This document shows, piece by piece, positions 2,523 through 39,642 of a DNA stretch of 64,000 nt. The position numbers were made by a program, and so were the translations under genes. The stretch is from a virus (taxonomy: Duplodnaviria > Heunggongvirae > Uroviricota > Caudoviricetes). The notes below the pieces were generated by a model. That model was not told the DNA's origin. It made no database searches and worked only from the letters and a program-made list of their open reading frames with translations. The stretch is taken from IMG/VR virus record IMGVR_UViG_3300042298_002704; one strand, given 5' to 3'. Numbering within the stretch: position 1 is the stretch's first letter; each line of letters begins with the position of its first letter.

Positions 2523-5500
2523 TGAAAAGGTTTATATTTTTGACCAAGATAACATTCAAATAAACGTATATGAACAATCATCTACGGAAGTAAATGTTAT
2601 TCCTGAAAATGAACCTGAAATTATTTATTTATTTGAACCGGGACCACAGGGGCCAAAGGGTAATGACGGAGGTGAATTTGTTTTACCGTCAAATGTAGTA
2701 TCCGGTTCAGACCAATTAAGCGGAAGTTTTGATTTAAGATATGAGTTACAAGGTTCAAATCTTATATCATCAAGTCAACAAATTTCAAGTGATATTTCTG
2801 GTTCATTTACCAATCTTTCCAGTTCATTTGCTGGAAGGATTTTTGTATTTGAAAATAAAACTTTATTTTCATCATCCCAACAAGTTGATTATAATTCAAT
2901 TCAAAACGTCCCGGCTGGCATTTTAAGTTCAAGTCAAACCTTTGTACTTAAAACCGAATTTTATCCGTATTCAAGTTCAACAGATACGAAGATAGGAAGA
3001 TTGGAACAACAAACATCTTCTTACGCTCAAATTTCAACTCTAACGCCTTTATTTAATTTTACAAGTTCTACTAACCAACGGCTGCAAATAATTGAACAGG
3101 CGACATCCTCGTATGTTAGAAACGATTCTACCGCATCGTTTATAAACAATTCACAGACTTCAAGTTTTGCAACTGCTCAAAGTTTCATTTCATATACTGG
3201 TTCTACAGATGAAAAAATTCGAAGGTTAGAACAGGCGACCAGTTCATTTGCTGTTAAAACTGAAATTAGCGGAGCATTTACGTCAACTTCAAGTTCCCTT
3301 GCAAGTAGAATAGGTATATTTGAAAATAAAACCTTATTATCAGGTTCTTCACAAATACAATATTCTCAAATAACTGGTATTCCGGTTGGAATTTTAAGTT
3401 CAAGTAATGGTTTTATTTCAAGTAGTCAGCAAGTACATTTTTCTTTAATATCAAATAAACCAACCTTAGTATCAAGCTCAGGACAAATTTCATACTTAGA
3501 AATTGTAAACGTTCCGAGTAATATTGTGTCAGGTAGTGATCAACTTTCTGGAAGTTATGATTCACGATATGAAAGAAAAGGAACTGGCATTCTTTCATCA
3601 TCTAATGGATTTTTTAGTTCATCTGCTCAGGTAGATTATAATTTTATTCAGAATAAACCTACAACGATACCAACTGCAAGTTTTGCATTGACGGCAAGTT
3701 TTGCATTAAATGCAGGATCGGGGGGGAACATAAATACAAGTTCACTTGCAACCACTGGTTCAAATCAGTTTAATGGAAACCAAAGTATAAGTGGAAGTTT
3801 AACAGTAAGCCAACCAATAACAGGGTCAATTTTAAGCGCAAGTTATGCGGTTTCGGCCAGTTATGCTCCAAGAGTACCATTACCTGCAAATTTAATTAGT
3901 TCAAGTCAGCAAGTGAATTTTGCTGATATTTCAGGTTCATTTAATACTGGATCATTCTTAGCAAATAGCTTTACTTCAAGCTATTATACGTTTACAGCTT
4001 CTATTGATACAAAGGTTCAACGTCTTGAAAGTGTTACCAGTTCATACGCGCTTAAAACAGAAATTAGTGGTGCGTTTACAAACGTTTCAAGCTCATTACA
4101 AGCAAGAATTGGACTGTTTGAGGGAAAGACTTTATTTTCATCGTCTGCTCAATTACCCTCTGGTTTAATTTCTTCAAGTGCTGGATTTATAAGTGCATCG
4201 AGTCAAGTTGATTTTGCGGGGATCATAAATAAACCAACTTTACTTTCAGGTTCAGGTCAAGTTATTTATAACCAAATTAGTTCAATTCCTTCAAATATTG
4301 TAAGTGGAAGCGAACAACTAACTTCAAGTTATGATACTCGTTACCATCGACTTGGAACTGGATTATTTAGTGCGTCACAGCAAGTAAATTACGCTCAGTT
4401 ACTTAACGTTCCAGTAGGGATTTTAAGTAGTTCAAATGGATTTATTTCTTCAAGTCAACAAATAAAAAATAACTTACCTTCTGGGACTGTTTCAAGTTCG
4501 CAACAAATAAATTCCGGCTCATTTTCAGGTTCTTTTTTTGGAAATGGTAGTGGTCTAACGGGAATCTTTTCGGCCTCATATGCTTTAACTGCTTCATATG
4601 TTTCAGGTTCAAGCAATAGTTCAATTTCATCGAGTTATGCAGTAACAGCTTCTTACGCGTTAGTTGCTCAAACACTTCTTGGTTCTATTGTTTCGGCATC
4701 ATATGCTGAAACTGCAAGTTATTTGAATAATCAAGCCAGATATTTTGCAACCCACAACCAGCCTGTTTCAGACGTTACATGGTCATTTCAACACAATCTT
4801 GGAAACAAATATCCAGTTATTACAGTTTGGGGAAATGATGATGAAGTGGTTATTCCTGAACGGATTTTTGGTTACAGTCCAAATTTGACTTATATTTATT
4901 TTCCGTCTTCACAATCCGGGTTTGCAGCAGCTACGGTCGGAAGTATTTTGCCCACAACATCCTATGGAAATTTTACAGGATCGTTTTCAGGTTCATTTAT
5001 CGGAGATGGAAGTGGGTTAACTGGCGTAACTGCTACAATACCGCCAAATATACTTTCAAGTTCTAATCAAATAGCAATTGATATTTCCGGGTCATTTACT
5101 AATTTATCAAGTTCATTTCAAAGTAGGATTTCGAGTTTTGAAAGTAAAACCTTATTTTCTTCTTCTGCCCAAGTCAATTTTTATCAAATTTCAAATGTTC
5201 CAGATGGTATTTTAAGTTCCAGTAACGGATTTATAAGTAGTAGTGAACAGTTAACGTCAAGTTATGATACTCGGTACGAGCGAAAAGGTACTGGTATTTT
5301 TTCAAGTTCTCAACAAGTTTCATTTACTCAAATATCTAACATTCCTTCTGGAATAATAAGTTCAAGCAATGGCTTTATAAGTTCAAGTCAACAGGTAGAT
5401 TTTTCTTTAATAGTAAATAAACCAACCTTAGTATCAGGATCGGGTCAAATTATATTTTTGGGCATTTCCAATGTTCCGAGTGGAATTGCATCTGGTAGTG

Positions 5501-31094: not shown

Positions 31095-31184
31095 AGGGAG
31101 TATGACCAGAATCGAACTGGCTTAGATTTTTATATCTTTCAGGGTCACAACCTGATTCGTTTCCGACAAACGAGTTACATACTC
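31095..31184 (-). tRNA. tRNA-His (GTG) with G-1:C73 and an unusual ~18-nt hairpin in the variable region
   Basis: 8-bp acceptor GGAGTATG/CATACTCC(+C). Anticodon stem TCAGG/CCTGA, loop TTGTGAC. Variable hairpin AAGAT..ATCTA. T-arm GCCAG-TTCGATT-CTGGT. Confidence 0.45.
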
Positions 31185-33363: not shown

Positions 33364-33447
33364 GTGGACACATTTGGGATTTGAACCCAAGTGATCTTGT
33401 TTGCAAAACAAGTGCATAGCCTCTCTGCCAATGGCCCCTAATAAAGT
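33364..33447 (-). tRNA. tRNA-Ala(TGC)-like element with a poorly pairing acceptor
   Basis: Anticodon stem CTTGT/ACAAG, loop TTTGCAA. T-arm TTGGG-TTCAAAT-CCCAA. Acceptor pairs in at most 5 of 7 positions. Confidence 0.3.
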
Positions 33448-33508
33448 CTAATCTTCAAAGGTTTTTATGAATTTACAAGTTTCGAGTAACCTTTGAAATG
33501 TGACTTTT

Positions 33509-33584
33509 TGGTGGCGAGGTCGAGATTTGAACTCGAAGTATAAGATCATGAGTCTTATGTGTTAACCAATTACACTACCTCGCT
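33509..33584 (-). tRNA. tRNA-Met/Ile2 (anticodon CAT), CCA encoded
   Basis: Acceptor AGCGAGG/CCTCGCC (A1:C72 unpaired). D stem GTGT/ACAC. Anticodon stem TAAGA/TCTTA, loop CTCATGA. T-arm TCGAG-TTCAAAT-CTCGA, then ACCA. Confidence 0.7.
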
Positions 33585-33909: not shown

Positions 33910-33936
33910 AAGAGCAGCATAGGATTCGAACCTACG
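33910..33936 (-). ncRNA. tRNA 3' fragment (T-arm plus 3' acceptor strand only)
   Basis: GTAGG-TTCGAAT-CCTAT then GCTGCTC. The 5' side is AT-rich with no complementary acceptor strand. Confidence 0.3.
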
Positions 33937-33949
33937 AACATTTGGTTAA

Positions 33950-34150
33950 TTATTTATTTGGGTTTTCAATTGAATGAATATTCAACTGATTTAAACTTAC
34001 CATCACAAATCCGTAACAAAGCACTGATGTTTGAATCGCATCCCAATTTATTGTTTGAAATAGAGCCAAATCCAATATAAACTTGGCCATTCCCCCAAAA
34101 CAAAATGCAATTAACGGCATTATTGAAAGTGATAATTTATTTGCTTGCAT
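33950..34150 (-). CDS. Small hydrophobic protein
   Basis: 66 aa with two hydrophobic stretches. Confidence 0.4.
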   Translation of the reverse strand: MQANKLSLSIMPLIAFCFGGMAKFILDLALFQTINWDAIQTSVLCYGFVMVSLNQLNIHSIENPNK

Positions 34151-36547: not shown

Positions 36548-36583
36548 AATGTGCCATAAAGGTACAATCCTCTAAGGCACATT
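36548..36583 (-). terminator. Putative terminator after the 36692-36985 gene
   Basis: AATGTGCC…GGCACATT stem. A-run on the + strand gives a T-run on the - strand. Confidence 0.35.
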
Positions 36584-36691
36584 TCCAAATGTTTTTACAG
36601 TATTAACAACTGGTTAACATAGGCAGTGCCTCGGCTTATTGGATAAATAAAATCGTTCTTGTTTTTTCATACACATAAATATCCAAAATTT

Positions 36692-36985
36692 TTAGAAAAC
36701 CTTTTTCAGGTCATGTGAATAAACAGCGCATTTATCTCCGTTTGTCCATTCGACTATTGACATTGGAACTTTTATTCCAAATAACTGCTCCAAAGCAAGT
36801 TGGTGCGTTTGTTCAGTGATAAAACCATAAGAACCACATTCGGGAATATCATACGAATAAATGTCGTTGTTGTTTTCGACTTTTAACCGAACCAAATTGC
36901 CTACTTCGAACGTAGGTTCTTCTTGTTTAGGTTCTATAACTTTGGATTTTTTCATAGATTTAAAAAGTGGTGGATATAAGTGCAA
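36692..36985 (-). CDS. Hypothetical protein
   Basis: 97 aa. Followed by a hairpin terminator at 36548-36583. Confidence 0.5.
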   Translation of the reverse strand: MHLYPPLFKSMKKSKVIEPKQEEPTFEVGNLVRLKVENNNDIYSYDIPECGSYGFITEQTHQLALEQLFGIKVPMSIVEWTNGDKCAVYSHDLKKVF

Positions 36986-37019
36986 TTATACCCACCCTAT
37001 TATCATGTCCAGTACATTT

Positions 37020-39131
37020 TTAAATCCAACTTTTTCCAGTTACGGCTGGGGCAGTAGTTAAACCTTGGGTTAAATCTATGTCTACAATCGGAACTGAATT
37101 AAGCGTTTCTTCTGTCATCATTCTTGCAACCTGTTCCCACGTAGTATTTTCATCAAAAACAATATCGGCTTCTTCTTTTGTTTTCACAACCGAACCTGCC
37201 AATAAATCGATGATATGGCCTTGGGCAAGTTTTTTCCAATTAACTTCCTCTTTACCGTCATCCAAGATAACAAACTTTTCCAAGAATGTTCTCATCTTGA
37301 TTACATCAGAGGCACTTGCAACAATGTTGTTCGTATCCAAAGCAACGTCTAAATAAACCAAGTTCTTAGTCGGAACGTGAACTGCGCACAAATAAGCGGT
37401 CTTTGAATTTGACGTTATTTTTGTCGCGTGTTCGACTGTTTCAGGTAACCAATGGTTGTTTCTTTCTGGTTTAGAACGTTGCATCCAACCACAAAGAACA
37501 CCCTCATTTGGCCATTTATTGAAGTTTGGTCCGCGAAAAATTCGAGCGTCAAAAACAACCCATTCAACTCCGTCCAAATCATTCAAGTTTAGATCCAAGT
37601 ATTCTGCGTTTTTATACGCATATCCGGTATTGTCCCCCGAATAAGTAATCGAGGTTCCGAATTTATGATCCCCGTTCCAACCAACTTTAACAACTGAATT
37701 GTCTTGATTGATTACAAAGGCAGACAAATCAATGTCGTGTTTTTCTACCCAGTGACAATAAACTCGTAAAGTTTTGTCTTCTGGAAGTTTTTCAACTGTT
37801 CCGATTGCTTTACTTGAAATTGAAAAACTTGATGCTCTATTGTTGGTTGCTAATGGAGAATAATACAAAGAACGGCCAATGAAAACTTTCTTAGTGTTTT
37901 TCATCTTAACTTTCTTGTAAATTTGAACCATCAACTTGCCTCGAATTTCCTCAACTACCTCAGAAGGCAATGCTTCCAATGCTCCGAAAGTTGAAACATT
38001 GCTTTTGTTCTGGTTAGCCAAAACAACGGCACGATCTTTCTCTTGGTCACGGTCGGAAAAATAATTGTAAAGGGTTACCAATTGTTCAAAAGTTGGTTCC
38101 AGTTTTACAAATTCGTCGATTGCGACCATTCCGAAGACTTGAAACAATTGATTCATTCTTCTCATGTAAACACCTTTGCGTTTTGCAAGTAAATTGAAGA
38201 TAGTAACATCTTTATTTTTAATTGCGAGTTCCAACCTTGAATTGAACGTCTTCAACTCTTTCGAGTTGTTCCGTAATTTCCACGCAAATGATGCAAGAAT
38301 TGGAAATAACCGTTTATTTTCAGAAGTCAACGGATTCAGATAAAACAAAACTCGCAACCAAACTTCGCGATATGTTTTGAAACTTTCCTCCAAGTCATAA
38401 CACTCATTTAAAGTACGCAAAAGCGCATTTTTAACTGAACGTTTTGGCTGTTTAAATTTAGTTTTATCTTTCAAACCTTCGTCTCCGCCACAATATGCAG
38501 CATAAATACGCAAAACATCAGTAGCGGAACGAACTGGAAGTTCTTTGCCCAAATCCAAATAACGCTTACCGATGTAAGCCTTGGTTTCTTTGAATGAAAT
38601 GCGATTAAATTCCAATTCAGGGGCAAGGCCGTTATCAATAAACCAGTCGACAATTTCTTTATCCCATTTAGAAATTGAACTTCCAGAATAGACGATATCA
38701 GTGAAAATTGAATCGAATTGACGTTCAGTTAACAAAGAAATTTCTTTGTAATTGACATCTTCCAACGCAAATTCGCGCTTCATAAATTCACTGTCTTCTG
38801 GCCGCCAAGTTCCAAATGACCAATAATGAGAAATTGCGTTCCAAACAAATTCTTCATGAGAAAGTGCTTGAACTGATTGAGGGAAATTTCGATAAATTGG
38901 TTCATAACCACTTTCACCGACAATAGTTTTCAAACCCTTACAAAGATCGTTGTAGACTTCTGTAAGTGTTTGTTGATCTTGTTTACCGAGAGCAATGTGA
39001 AGTTGCTCAGAACATACAAATCCGTATTTAAATAGTTCAGTTTGGATTTGCATTGCAAGTAATCTGTTACTTTCGGTTCCTTCATTTAGGAACAAACCTT
39101 TCCGCTTTTGAAAGGAAATAAAATGTTTCAT
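37020..39131 (-). CDS. Large protein of unknown function (703 aa) embedded in the tRNA island
   Basis: Single long ORF with an ATG start. I recognise no catalytic motif (no Walker A, no HNH, no DxD). Flanked by tRNA-Arg and a tRNA-like minihelix. Confidence 0.7.
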   Translation of the reverse strand: MKHFISFQKRKGLFLNEGTESNRLLAMQIQTELFKYGFVCSEQLHIALGKQDQQTLTEVYNDLCKGLKTIVGESGYEPIYRNFPQSVQALSHEEFVWNAISHYWSFGTWRPEDSEFMKREFALEDVNYKEISLLTERQFDSIFTDIVYSGSSISKWDKEIVDWFIDNGLAPELEFNRISFKETKAYIGKRYLDLGKELPVRSATDVLRIYAAYCGGDEGLKDKTKFKQPKRSVKNALLRTLNECYDLEESFKTYREVWLRVLFYLNPLTSENKRLFPILASFAWKLRNNSKELKTFNSRLELAIKNKDVTIFNLLAKRKGVYMRRMNQLFQVFGMVAIDEFVKLEPTFEQLVTLYNYFSDRDQEKDRAVVLANQNKSNVSTFGALEALPSEVVEEIRGKLMVQIYKKVKMKNTKKVFIGRSLYYSPLATNNRASSFSISSKAIGTVEKLPEDKTLRVYCHWVEKHDIDLSAFVINQDNSVVKVGWNGDHKFGTSITYSGDNTGYAYKNAEYLDLNLNDLDGVEWVVFDARIFRGPNFNKWPNEGVLCGWMQRSKPERNNHWLPETVEHATKITSNSKTAYLCAVHVPTKNLVYLDVALDTNNIVASASDVIKMRTFLEKFVILDDGKEEVNWKKLAQGHIIDLLAGSVVKTKEEADIVFDENTTWEQVARMMTEETLNSVPIVDIDLTQGLTTAPAVTGKSWI

Positions 39132-39301
39132 TTAATGAAATTTAAAAAGTGAATAATCTTTGAAGGTTGTTTAGAATGAAATGTAGTCATGTAGTAACCT
39201 TCAAAATGTTTCAGTTTGTTTTTTTATTTTCGACTAATCTCGAAAAGTAATTTACGGCGCGTCTACCAGTTTCGCCACTCCCTGCGTTTTGAATTTATTA
39301 G

Positions 39302-39342
39302 GCAGGGAGGCAGGAATCGAACCTGCAATGTACCGGCTCCCA
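39302..39342 (-). ncRNA. tRNA-like minihelix (acceptor plus T-arm only)
   Basis: TGGGAG-CCGGTACATT-GCAGG-TTCGATT-CCTGC-CTCCCTG. No D or anticodon arms. Confidence 0.3.
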
Positions 39343-39375
39343 ATGCAGTAACTTTTCAAATGTGTCAAAAAATTG

Positions 39376-39448
39376 TGATCCCGGCAGAATTCGAATCTGC
39401 AACTTATTCATTAGAAGTGAATTACTCTATCCGTTGAGTTACGGGACC
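39376..39448 (-). tRNA. tRNA-Arg (anticodon TCT)
   Basis: Acceptor GGTCCCG/CGGGATC. D stem ACTC/GAGT. Anticodon stem ATTCA/TGAAT, loop CTTCTAA. T-arm GCAGA-TTCGAAT-TCTGC. Confidence 0.75.
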
Positions 39449-39642
39449 AGATTAAAATTAAGTCTAATCTTCAAAGGTTTTATGAATTTACAAGTTTCGG
39501 AGTAACCTTTGAAATGTGACTTATAATTATCAAATTTTAACCAAAACAAATTTGATTGCGTCTTGTTTGAATGAAACACCTTGACGATGGTGATCAAAAA
39601 ATCCATTTATAAACAATCTACTTCCTATAATGAAATGTTTCA

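What the first reader, a model, noticed from the sequence alone, without database searches (positions are those of the whole stretch)
37020..39342. Unrecognised 703-aa protein embedded in the tRNA island, flanked by a tRNA-like minihelix
The long ORF at 37020-39131 (-) has none of the signatures I can identify by eye: no P-loop, no nucleotidyltransferase GGxxRD/DxD, no HNH, no ligase KxDG. It sits between tRNA clusters. Immediately upstream on its strand is an acceptor-plus-T-arm minihelix (39302-39342), then tRNA-Arg. Large proteins co-located with tRNAs in phages are often RNA repair, modification or RNA-binding factors. An arrangement of an RNA-binding protein with an adjacent tRNA-like non-coding RNA, as in Ro60/Rsr with YrlA-type RNAs, would look like this, but that is speculation. 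This is the strongest candidate for an undescribed system in the window.
Basis: inference. Interest (0 to 1): 0.7.

Follow-up and report, generated by a model that had tools for sequence, protein, structure and literature searches.

The report
Ro60-like protein with tRNA-mimic RNAs
A large unannotated phage protein is encoded next to a set of small structured RNAs, some shaped like rearranged tRNAs; the pairing resembles the Ro60–Y RNA particle but uses different parts, recurs in phages and bacteria, and was not found in any library or paper I searched.

Summary
The 703-aa ORF (37020-39131, minus strand) is real. The "minihelix" is real but is only part of a 146-nt circularly permuted tRNA-like RNA (39227-39372). 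That RNA, two ~70-nt hairpin RNAs beside it and a fourth 5.6 kb away share one core: outer stem P1, internal loop CAU/GAUUA, 8-bp stem P2, then UUACU.

About 30 independent loci carry this core beside homologues of the protein. All 72 covariance-model hits lie on the gene strand. Both stems covary strongly. Searching from the RNA motif alone led back to the gene in 6 of 6 contigs.

The apical part varies: an open loop, a T-arm/acceptor "top half", or a full tRNA-like in either permutation. Homologues at 23-26% identity (Rhodococcus phage Weasels2, Xanthomonas phage XacN1, a gut phage) keep the architecture with altered core motifs.

Best reading: a Ro60/Y-RNA-like ribonucleoprotein built from different parts. 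Binding and function are inferred. The family has about 2,600 clusters, all unannotated, and the RNA is not in Rfam.

The parts
37020..39131 (-). Gene for the 703-aa protein (helical Ro60-ring-like N-terminal domain plus TerD domain)
   Evidence: ORF. 163 homologues, none with an informative name. Family of 2,592 50%-identity clusters at E<=1e-3. AF2 model pLDDT 77, pTM 0.68.
38037..39053 (-). N-terminal all-helical domain (about aa 27-365), fold closest to the Ro60/TROVE ring
37329..37796 (-). TerD domain (about aa 446-601) with conserved metal-site motifs DIDLS and SGDNTG
39227..39372 (-). Circularly permuted tRNA-like RNA: P1 (39364-39372 / 39227-39234), CAU (39360-39362), P2 (39352-39359 / 39240-39247), UUACU (39347-39351), T-arm, closed acceptor, D-arm, GAUU (39236-39239)
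   Evidence: MFE fold. RNAalifold on 5 permuted examples from 4 lineages: 21 of 31 pairs keep pairing through changes on both sides. Weak Rfam YrlA hit, 17.6 bits.
39303..39326 (-).
   Evidence: Rfam tRNA local hit on the T-arm.
39259..39284 (-). Acceptor 5' strand (39278-39284) and D-arm (39259-39275) of the same RNA, downstream of the 18-nt loop that closes the acceptor
39145..39218 (-). Stand-alone hairpin RNA unit (P1, CAU/GAUUA loop, P2, UUACU, A/U-rich loop, U-tract), ending 13 nt before the start codon
   Evidence: R1 covariance model, 65.2 bits, E 6e-13.
39456..39526 (-). Stand-alone hairpin RNA unit, 7 nt upstream of tRNA-Arg
   Evidence: R1, 64.7 bits, E 8.5e-13. It overlaps a mechanically listed 55-aa ORF (39439-39606), which is therefore probably spurious.
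39375..39448 (-). tRNA-Arg(UCU), packed between two RNA units with gaps of 7 and 2 nt
   Evidence: ARAGORN. Rfam tRNA 66.6 bits.
33440..33510 (-). Fourth RNA unit, near-copy of 39456-39526, between tRNA-Met and tRNA-Ala
   Evidence: R1, 68.7 bits, E 9e-14.
36969..36996 (-). Terminator-like hairpin (11-bp stem plus U-tract) 24 nt after the stop codon; probable end of the transcription unit

Best explanation
The region is a two-component cassette. It holds tandem genes for small structured RNAs, followed on the same strand by the gene for a 703-aa protein that most likely binds them, giving a ribonucleoprotein that works like Ro60 with its Y RNAs.

Shown by computation:
(1) All the RNAs share a core: outer stem P1, a conserved internal loop (5' ACAU, 3' GAUUA), an 8-bp stem P2 extended by a U.G and a U-A pair, and an invariant UUACU.
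(2) Beyond the core the RNAs differ. The apical part is an unstructured A/U-rich loop, a hairpin, a T-arm stacked on a closed acceptor, or a full tRNA-like body. The full body occurs with the acceptor open and the core in place of the anticodon loop, or circularly permuted as in this window.
(3) This RNA family is the only feature that consistently accompanies the gene across phages and bacteria.
(4) The protein has a TerD domain, and its helical domain has Ro60 as its nearest solved fold.

Inferred:
(5) The helical domain recognises the invariant core, as Ro60 recognises the conserved bulged stem of Y RNAs.
(6) The variable apical domain is displayed as an adaptor or decoy. The tRNA-like versions would engage tRNA-binding factors such as processing, modification or repair enzymes, or host tRNA-targeting nucleases.
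(7) The TerD domain, with its strictly conserved metal-site residues, replaces the vWA/MIDAS cap of Ro60 as a metal or ligand-dependent interaction module.
(8) In a phage with 18 tRNA genes, the likely role is surveillance or protection of tRNA and other structured RNA during infection.

The close packing with tRNA-Arg suggests one precursor transcript, cut into separate RNAs by the tRNA-processing enzymes RNase P and RNase Z.
For: RNA family is real. Sequence-anchored test: of 89 unique CAT-N8-TTACT sites, 57 pair 8/8 and 22 pair 7/8 with an N8-GATT partner, against about 1 and about 5 in two controls; there are 83 different stem sequences. On 47 aligned units, 94.1% of cells pair against 50.3% when shuffled (0 of 500 shuffles reach it). 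P1, which was not used to select the units, pairs in 89.4% of cells with double changes at 6 of 6 positions. Both tRNA-like permutations are recovered independently by RNAalifold: 21/31 and 19/25 pairs with compensatory change. Rfam scores the non-permuted forms as tRNAs of 120-130 nt with the core at the anticodon loop.

Linkage to the gene. Regex search: 120 units on the gene strand and 1 on the other strand. Covariance model: 72 hits at E<=0.01, all on the gene strand, in 244 kb. About 29 of 33 distinct loci have units within about 700 nt upstream. A second Myxococcales MAG has them just downstream on the other strand. No protein-coding neighbour is conserved across the family. Reciprocal test from the RNA pattern alone: all 6 contigs with real units have the gene adjacent; the other matches pair only 3-6 of 8 and fail the model.

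Depth. Homologues at 23-26% identity in Weasels2, XacN1 and a gut phage have 3-4 tandem units of the same two-helix architecture next to the gene. Their core motifs are changed (UUAA/GCUCA with UUACU; or UUCCUUCU), which fits RNA-protein co-evolution. Weasels2 unit 3 folds as a permuted cloverleaf and gives an Rfam YrlA hit of 26.4 bits.

Parallel with known systems. [quoted passage not shown]

Against: Stand-alone units end in a U-tract and sit in front of the gene, which also fits cis-acting attenuators. Three GC-rich or partial loci (L037, L046, L049) show no unit. One unit in the window lies 5.6 kb from the gene. The biological role (steps 6-8) is analogy only.
Confidence: 0.62

Rival explanations
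1. The units are cis-regulatory leader elements of the gene's own mRNA. They would be a series of terminator or attenuator hairpins that the protein, or another factor, binds to set its own expression, rather than separate functional RNAs.
For: Units lie directly upstream on the same strand. The last one ends 13 nt before the start codon. Stand-alone units are followed by U-tracts. No sigma-70-like promoter was found between the units and the gene.
Against: Units also occur away from the gene: 33440-33510 in the window, and L001 at 11089 and 13652. They lie downstream of the gene in Weasels2 and on the opposite strand in L014. The non-permuted tRNA-like forms have their own acceptor ends and canonical D and T arms, which suits excision as separate RNAs. 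Autoregulation could coexist with the ribonucleoprotein model.
Confidence: 0.14
2. The non-permuted forms are genuine tRNAs carrying a new kind of insertion or intron in the anticodon loop. The protein would be their maturation or splicing factor. The stand-alone and permuted forms would be decayed derivatives.
For: Rfam's tRNA model scores them at 43-53 bits with canonical acceptor, D and T arms. The gene often sits in tRNA arrays. RtcB, annotated as a tRNA splicing ligase, lies 3 kb from the Weasels2 homologue.
Against: Removing the P2/P1 hairpin leaves only 3-4 loop nucleotides, so no 7-nt anticodon loop can form (read). ARAGORN calls none of them as tRNAs. Most units (51 of 82 unique) have no tRNA body at all. 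The permuted forms could not be aminoacylated because the acceptor is closed.
Confidence: 0.07
3. The units are repeats, processing signals or miniature mobile elements of phage tRNA islands, and their nearness to the gene is incidental. The protein would be a TerD-type stress or metal-binding protein unrelated to RNA.
For: The C-terminal domain is a bona fide TerD. One unit sits between two tRNAs far from the gene. The evidence for the Ro60 fold is weak.
Against: Units accompany the gene in loci with no tRNAs, including Myxococcales chromosomes. The strand bias is 72 to 0. The stems differ between copies while keeping pairing, unlike the near-identical copies expected of mobile repeats. The reciprocal test gave 6 of 6. 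No other conserved neighbour exists.
Confidence: 0.05

Closest known systems
Ro60/Rsr with Y RNAs, especially bacterial and phage YrlA (Rfam RF02553; Chen et al. 2014, PMC4201824)
   Different: No sequence similarity to TROVE. TerD replaces the vWA/MIDAS domain. The conserved RNA core is ACAU/GAUUA plus UUACU, not GNCGAA. YrlA model score is 17.6 bits against a gathering score of 69. Within this one family the tRNA-like body occurs in both circular permutations and in 'top-half only' form.
Thermus phage phiLo Ro60 with Yrl1/Yrl2 (PDB 9L5Y/9KOP; PMC12135203)
   Different: phiRo60 is a recognisable TROVE plus vWFA protein, and its RNAs carry the CGAA motif. Neither is true here.
TerD family (Pfam PF02342; structures 2QZ7, 2KXT, 3IBZ)
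   Same: The C-terminal domain has the TerD fold and the conserved DxDxS and SGDxT metal-site motifs.
   Different: Classical TerD proteins are single-domain proteins of about 190 aa in tellurite or stress-resistance operons. Here the domain is fused behind a 400-aa helical region and paired with RNAs. No link between TerD and RNA turned up in the literature searches.
MXAN_6230/SCO0854 RING domain family (NCBIfam NF041916)
   Same: Partial sequence similarity over residues 287-604, covering the end of the helical domain plus TerD (E 2e-39).
   Different: The score of 135 bits is far below the family cut-off of 600, and no match to the rest of the 842-position model was reported. I did not examine whether that family has RNA partners.
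tRNA genes (Rfam RF00005)
   Same: The non-permuted RNAs pass the tRNA gathering score and have canonical acceptor, D and T arms.
   Different: There is no anticodon loop. A 40-60-nt two-helix module occupies that position. The window's copy is permuted with a closed acceptor.

Membership tests
Ro60 / TROVE (Pfam PF05731) | Sequence match to the TROVE profile | tested here: not met
   No TROVE hit for the window protein at E<=1, nor for 30 plus 63 family members. hhalign of family profiles against an 18-sequence Ro60 alignment gives probability 0.1% and 0.2%. The Ro60 alignment is narrow (actinobacterial, Neff 2.5).
Ro60 / TROVE (Pfam PF05731) | HEAT-repeat helices forming a closed ring | tested here: inconclusive
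Ro60 / TROVE (Pfam PF05731) | C-terminal vWA domain with a MIDAS site capping the ring (PF25045) | tested here: not met
Ro60 / TROVE (Pfam PF05731) | Structured small RNA genes adjacent on the same strand | tested here: met
YrlA (Rfam RF02553) | Score at or above the gathering threshold (69 bits) | tested here: not met
   17.6 bits in the window. 26.4 bits for the Weasels2 unit.
YrlA (Rfam RF02553) | GNCGAAN0-1G motif near the 5' end, the proposed Rsr-binding site (PMC4201824) | tested here: not met
   The invariant positions in 47 aligned units are CAT, TTACT, A and GATT; there is no conserved CGAA.
YrlA (Rfam RF02553) | tRNA-like domain with T-arm 5' of a closed acceptor-like stem and D-arm 3' of it | tested here: met
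   Window RNA 39227-39372 and four relatives.
TerD (Pfam PF02342) | TerD beta-sandwich fold | tested here: met
TerD (Pfam PF02342) | Profile match and conserved metal-binding motifs | tested here: met
   The window protein itself is below Pfam's reporting level. But 19 of 30 close homologues hit TerD, and the family profile hits TerD chains in PDB at E 0.006. DIDLS and SGDNTG are invariant. That these residues bind calcium is taken from my knowledge of TerD structures, not tested here.
tRNA (Rfam RF00005) | Cloverleaf with a 7-nt anticodon loop | tested here: not met
   In the window, only the T-arm matches locally (13.6 bits). Non-permuted relatives pass the threshold but carry the core module in place of the anticodon loop. 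ARAGORN calls none of them.
Known anti-phage defence proteins (PADLOC-DB) | Match to any PADLOC model | tested here: not met
   No hit at E<=0.01 for the window protein or for the Weasels2 and XacN1 homologues.

The most novel reading that the evidence does not exclude
This is a previously unrecognised class of ribonucleoprotein, independent of or only very anciently related to Ro60. A TerD-capped helical protein would be programmed by interchangeable small RNAs whose apical modules imitate tRNA parts. Phages would use it to intercept host tRNA-targeting defences or to triage damaged tRNAs, with the TerD metal site acting as a switch. The coexistence of both circular permutations of a tRNA body on one protein-binding scaffold would then be a natural example of modular RNA adaptor evolution.
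Probability: 0.3. Interest if true: 0.9.

Novelty: new variant of a known kind. Interest (0 to 1): 0.8.

Why it matters
Ro60-Y RNA particles are conserved from bacteria to humans, yet their functions remain poorly understood. A second, sequence-unrelated or extremely diverged version would show which features of the design are essential: a different cap domain, a different RNA recognition motif and an unusually varied set of tRNA-mimic modules.

It would give a function to a family of about 2,600 protein clusters now labelled hypothetical. It would add a structured RNA family with strong covariation that is absent from Rfam 15.

It also offers cultured systems for experiments: Rhodococcus phage Weasels2, and Xanthomonas phages XacN1 and Xoo-sp13. 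For phage biology, it points to a further layer in the contest over tRNA between phages and host defences.

Tried and rejected
(1) Internal start at Met27. This was suggested by the 677-aa database homologues. I rejected it because the first 26 residues are conserved.

(2) Anticodon-loop mimicry by a small hairpin in the short inserts. By eye, loops such as CUUUUAA looked like anticodon loops. But the 47 inserts are unstructured on folding, with MFE near 0 and less structure than shuffles, so I dropped it for the stand-alone units.

(3) Sequence-level link to Ro60. I built a Ro60 alignment from mycobacteriophage Bxz1 gp220 and compared it with narrow and broad family profiles. There was no signal.

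(4) First reciprocal scan with the pattern ACAT..GGTTACT..ACC..GATTA. It returned 23 stretches with no protein gene, which at first looked like a contradiction. All of them fail the covariance model and pair only 3-6 of 8, so they are chance matches in a very large collection. L093, a borderline hit, lies inside an 846-aa ORF.

(5) The afdb50 fold library was unavailable.

(6) DNA similarity of the region to deposited phages found only the tRNA-Arg.

(7) Literature searches for TerD with tRNA-like, TROVE with TerD, and Ro60 with phage and tRNA-like found no description of this family.

(8) A conserved protein partner such as RtcB or PNPase: none is conserved across loci. RtcB is near the gene only in Weasels2.
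Full report
OBSERVATION. The ORF at 37020-39131 on the minus strand is real and 703 aa long. Database homologues are mostly called as about 677 aa, which suggested an internal start. The protein has no significant Pfam or NCBIfam assignment and only an unknown-function PHROG. It lies in a same-strand island of tRNA genes. The window belongs to a tailed phage with a contractile tail sheath.

It is only a fragment of a larger RNA. After an 18-nt loop come the complementary acceptor 5' strand (39278-39284) and a D-arm (39259-39275). Two further helices, formed by the sequences at 39352-39372 and 39227-39247, enclose the whole. This is a circularly permuted tRNA-like RNA of 146 nt.

A NEW RNA FAMILY. 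Reading the DNA upstream of homologous genes from other contigs showed the same conserved elements in AT-rich phages and in a GC-rich Myxococcales genome: CAT, eight variable bases, TTACT, then further on eight bases complementary to the first eight, then GATT.

I tested this in three ways. First, a search anchored only on the invariant letters found 89 unique sites. Of these, 57 pair perfectly and 22 pair at 7 of 8, against about 1 and about 5 in two kinds of control, and there are 83 different stem sequences. Second, in an alignment of 47 short units, the proposed structure is paired in 94.1% of cells against 50.3% after shuffling. An outer stem P1, which played no part in choosing the sequences, is paired in 89.4% of cells with compensatory changes at all six positions. 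Third, a covariance model built from that alignment finds exactly three units in the 64-kb window, at 39456-39526, 39145-39218 and 33440-33510, each at about 65-69 bits.

The common core is P1, an internal loop (5' ACAU, 3' GAUUA), P2, and UUACU. RNAalifold adds a U.G pair between the U of CAU and the G of GAUU, and a U-A pair at the other end of P2. Rfam 15 has no family for this core. Only its tRNA model responds, and only to the tRNA-like members.

VARIABLE APICAL DOMAIN. Of 82 unique units, 51 carry a 16-36-nt A/U-rich insert that does not fold. Others carry a hairpin, or a T-arm stacked on a closed acceptor-like hairpin without a D-arm, or a full tRNA-like body. The full body occurs in two topologies. 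In 15 unique cases the acceptor is open, and the core sits where the anticodon loop would be. Rfam scores these as tRNAs of 120-130 nt, and RNAalifold recovers acceptor, D-arm, P2 and T-arm with compensatory change in 19 of 25 pairs. In the window and four relatives the acceptor is closed by a loop and P1 is open, with 21 of 31 pairs showing compensatory change. ARAGORN calls none of them as tRNAs.

LINKAGE TO THE GENE. A regex search found 120 units on the gene strand of the collected loci and 1 on the other strand. The covariance model found 72 at E<=0.01, all on the gene strand, in 244 kb. By my count of distinct contigs, about 29 of 33 have units within about 700 nt upstream of the start codon. 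A second Myxococcales MAG has two units just beyond the gene on the other strand. Three GC-rich or partial loci show none.

No protein-coding neighbour is conserved across the family. Genuine tRNA genes are nearby in only about 10 of about 36 loci. Starting instead from RNA sequence patterns in the viral collection, every contig with real units had the gene adjacent (6 of 6). The remaining matches pair at 3-6 of 8, fail the model and are chance hits.

In the window the order on the minus strand is: unit, tRNA-Arg, permuted tRNA-like, unit, gene, terminator-like hairpin. The gaps between these features are 2 to 24 nt. This suggests a single precursor processed by the tRNA-processing enzymes RNase P and RNase Z; that step is inferred.

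TerD is confirmed by Foldseek, by a profile search of PDB sequences and by Pfam in 19 of 30 homologues. Its DIDLS and SGDNTG motifs are among the few invariant positions in 63 diverse members.

The Ro60 resemblance is not confirmed by any other method. Foldseek lists no Ro60. Pfam TROVE is never hit. hhalign against a Ro60 alignment built from mycobacteriophage Bxz1 gp220 gives 0.1-0.2% probability. I therefore treat 'Ro60-like fold' as a lead supported by one method and by the RNA context, not as family membership.

BREADTH. A profile search of 1.84 billion cluster representatives finds 2,592 members at E<=1e-3 and 1,196 at E<=1e-30, nearly all 670-740 aa. Foldseek on viral models finds full-length matches in Lactobacillus phage LpeD and Campylobacter virus IBB35 at about 15% identity. 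tblastn finds homologues at 23-26% identity in cultured phages Weasels2, XacN1, Xoo-sp13, RpAliso and RcXuper, all annotated as hypothetical.

I examined three of these remote loci, and each has tandem units next to the gene. Weasels2 has four units in the gap after gp266, one of them a permuted cloverleaf with an Rfam YrlA hit of 26.4 bits. XacN1 has three upstream of ORF396. A gut phage contig has four upstream of its gene. Ten of the eleven units fold into the two-helix architecture; the first gut-phage unit folded no better than shuffles. The conserved letters differ by lineage: UUAA/GCUCA with UUACU in Weasels2, and UUCCUUCU in XacN1 and the gut phage. That is what co-evolution of an RNA with its binding protein would produce, though it rests on three lineages read partly by eye.

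INTERPRETATION. The best-supported explanation is a ribonucleoprotein that works like Ro60 with Y RNAs. The protein binds the invariant core, and the variable apical domain serves as an adaptor or decoy. The TerD domain stands where Ro60 has its vWA/MIDAS cap.

The parallels with published Ro60 systems are these. Y RNAs lie beside the gene on the same strand. They have a terminal stem with a conserved binding motif. [quoted passage not shown] A phage Ro60 binds upstream-encoded Y-like RNAs and host PNPase (PMC12135203).

Binding, processing and biological role are all inferred. The main rival is that the units are cis-acting attenuators of the gene. It is weakened by units located far from, downstream of, or antisense to the gene, but it could coexist with the main model. 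A tRNA-intron reading and an incidental-repeat reading fit the data poorly.

NOVELTY. I found no description of this protein family, of the RNA core, or of a TerD-RNA connection in Rfam, Pfam, PHROGs, NCBIfam, PADLOC or the searchable literature. It fails the sequence-defined membership tests for Ro60 and YrlA while sharing their design, so I class it as a new variant of a known kind. If the Ro60 fold similarity proves spurious, it would be a new kind of ribonucleoprotein altogether.

Noticed in passing
window 33915-33940 (-): An orphan T-arm (GTAGG-TTCGAAT-CCTAT) plus acceptor 3' strand lies just after the 66-aa ORF 33950-34150. It has no matching 5' half and ARAGORN does not call it. It looks like a tRNA remnant.
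   Followed up: partly
window 36548-36686 (-): A weak Rfam hit to FuFi-1 RNA (26.7 bits against a gathering score of 59.6, E 0.005) lies in the gap between two small ORFs downstream of the gene. It could be another structured RNA.
   Followed up: no
window 31096-31184 (-); L001 12503-12591 and 11626-11718: tRNA-His is called at 89 nt here and in the close relative. The relative's tRNA-Lys is 93 nt. Both are unusually long for these tRNA types and may carry insertions.
   Followed up: no
L001 11321-11398; L029 4714-4787: Related phage contigs carry suppressor-type tRNAs: anticodon UUA (reads UAA) in the 96%-identical relative, and anticodon CUA (called tRNA-Pyl) just downstream of the homologous gene in L029. 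This may mean stop-codon reassignment in these phages. The window itself has no such tRNA.
   Followed up: no
L001 5416-5900 versus window 39218-39227: The close relative has about 480 extra bases, with a called 84-aa gene, inserted between the permuted tRNA-like RNA and the last unit. In the window these two RNAs are only 8 nt apart.
   Followed up: no
L060 (Xanthomonas phage XacN1) about 3598-3672: In the gap with the RNA units there is a tRNA-like sequence with an acceptor stem, an unusual T-loop (CGAACTA) and an encoded CCA end. It is neither annotated nor called by ARAGORN.
   Followed up: no
L061 808-1105; L062 702-1013; L076 695-1006: Phage contigs carry tmRNA genes. In the gut phage contig L061 the tmRNA and four tRNAs sit immediately upstream of the RNA units and the homologous gene.
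   Followed up: no
L059 (Rhodococcus phage Weasels2) 9029-9650: An RtcB RNA ligase gene lies 3 kb downstream of the homologue gp266 and its four RNA units, on the same strand. This echoes the rsr-Y RNA-rtcBA operon of Salmonella, which I recall from the literature on that operon (papers listed) but did not check. It is not conserved in other loci.
   Followed up: partly
window 39439-39606 (-) and 39216-39437 (+): Two mechanically listed small ORFs (55 and 73 aa) overlap the RNA units and tRNA-Arg. They are most likely not genes. Annotation pipelines may call such ORFs over this RNA family.
   Followed up: partly
L062-L086, the sites listed: About 20 viral contigs share an identical-length (47-nt) match to the degenerate RNA pattern, with only 3 of 8 pairing. 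This is probably one conserved coding sequence in a group of related phages, unrelated to the RNA family.
   Followed up: partly
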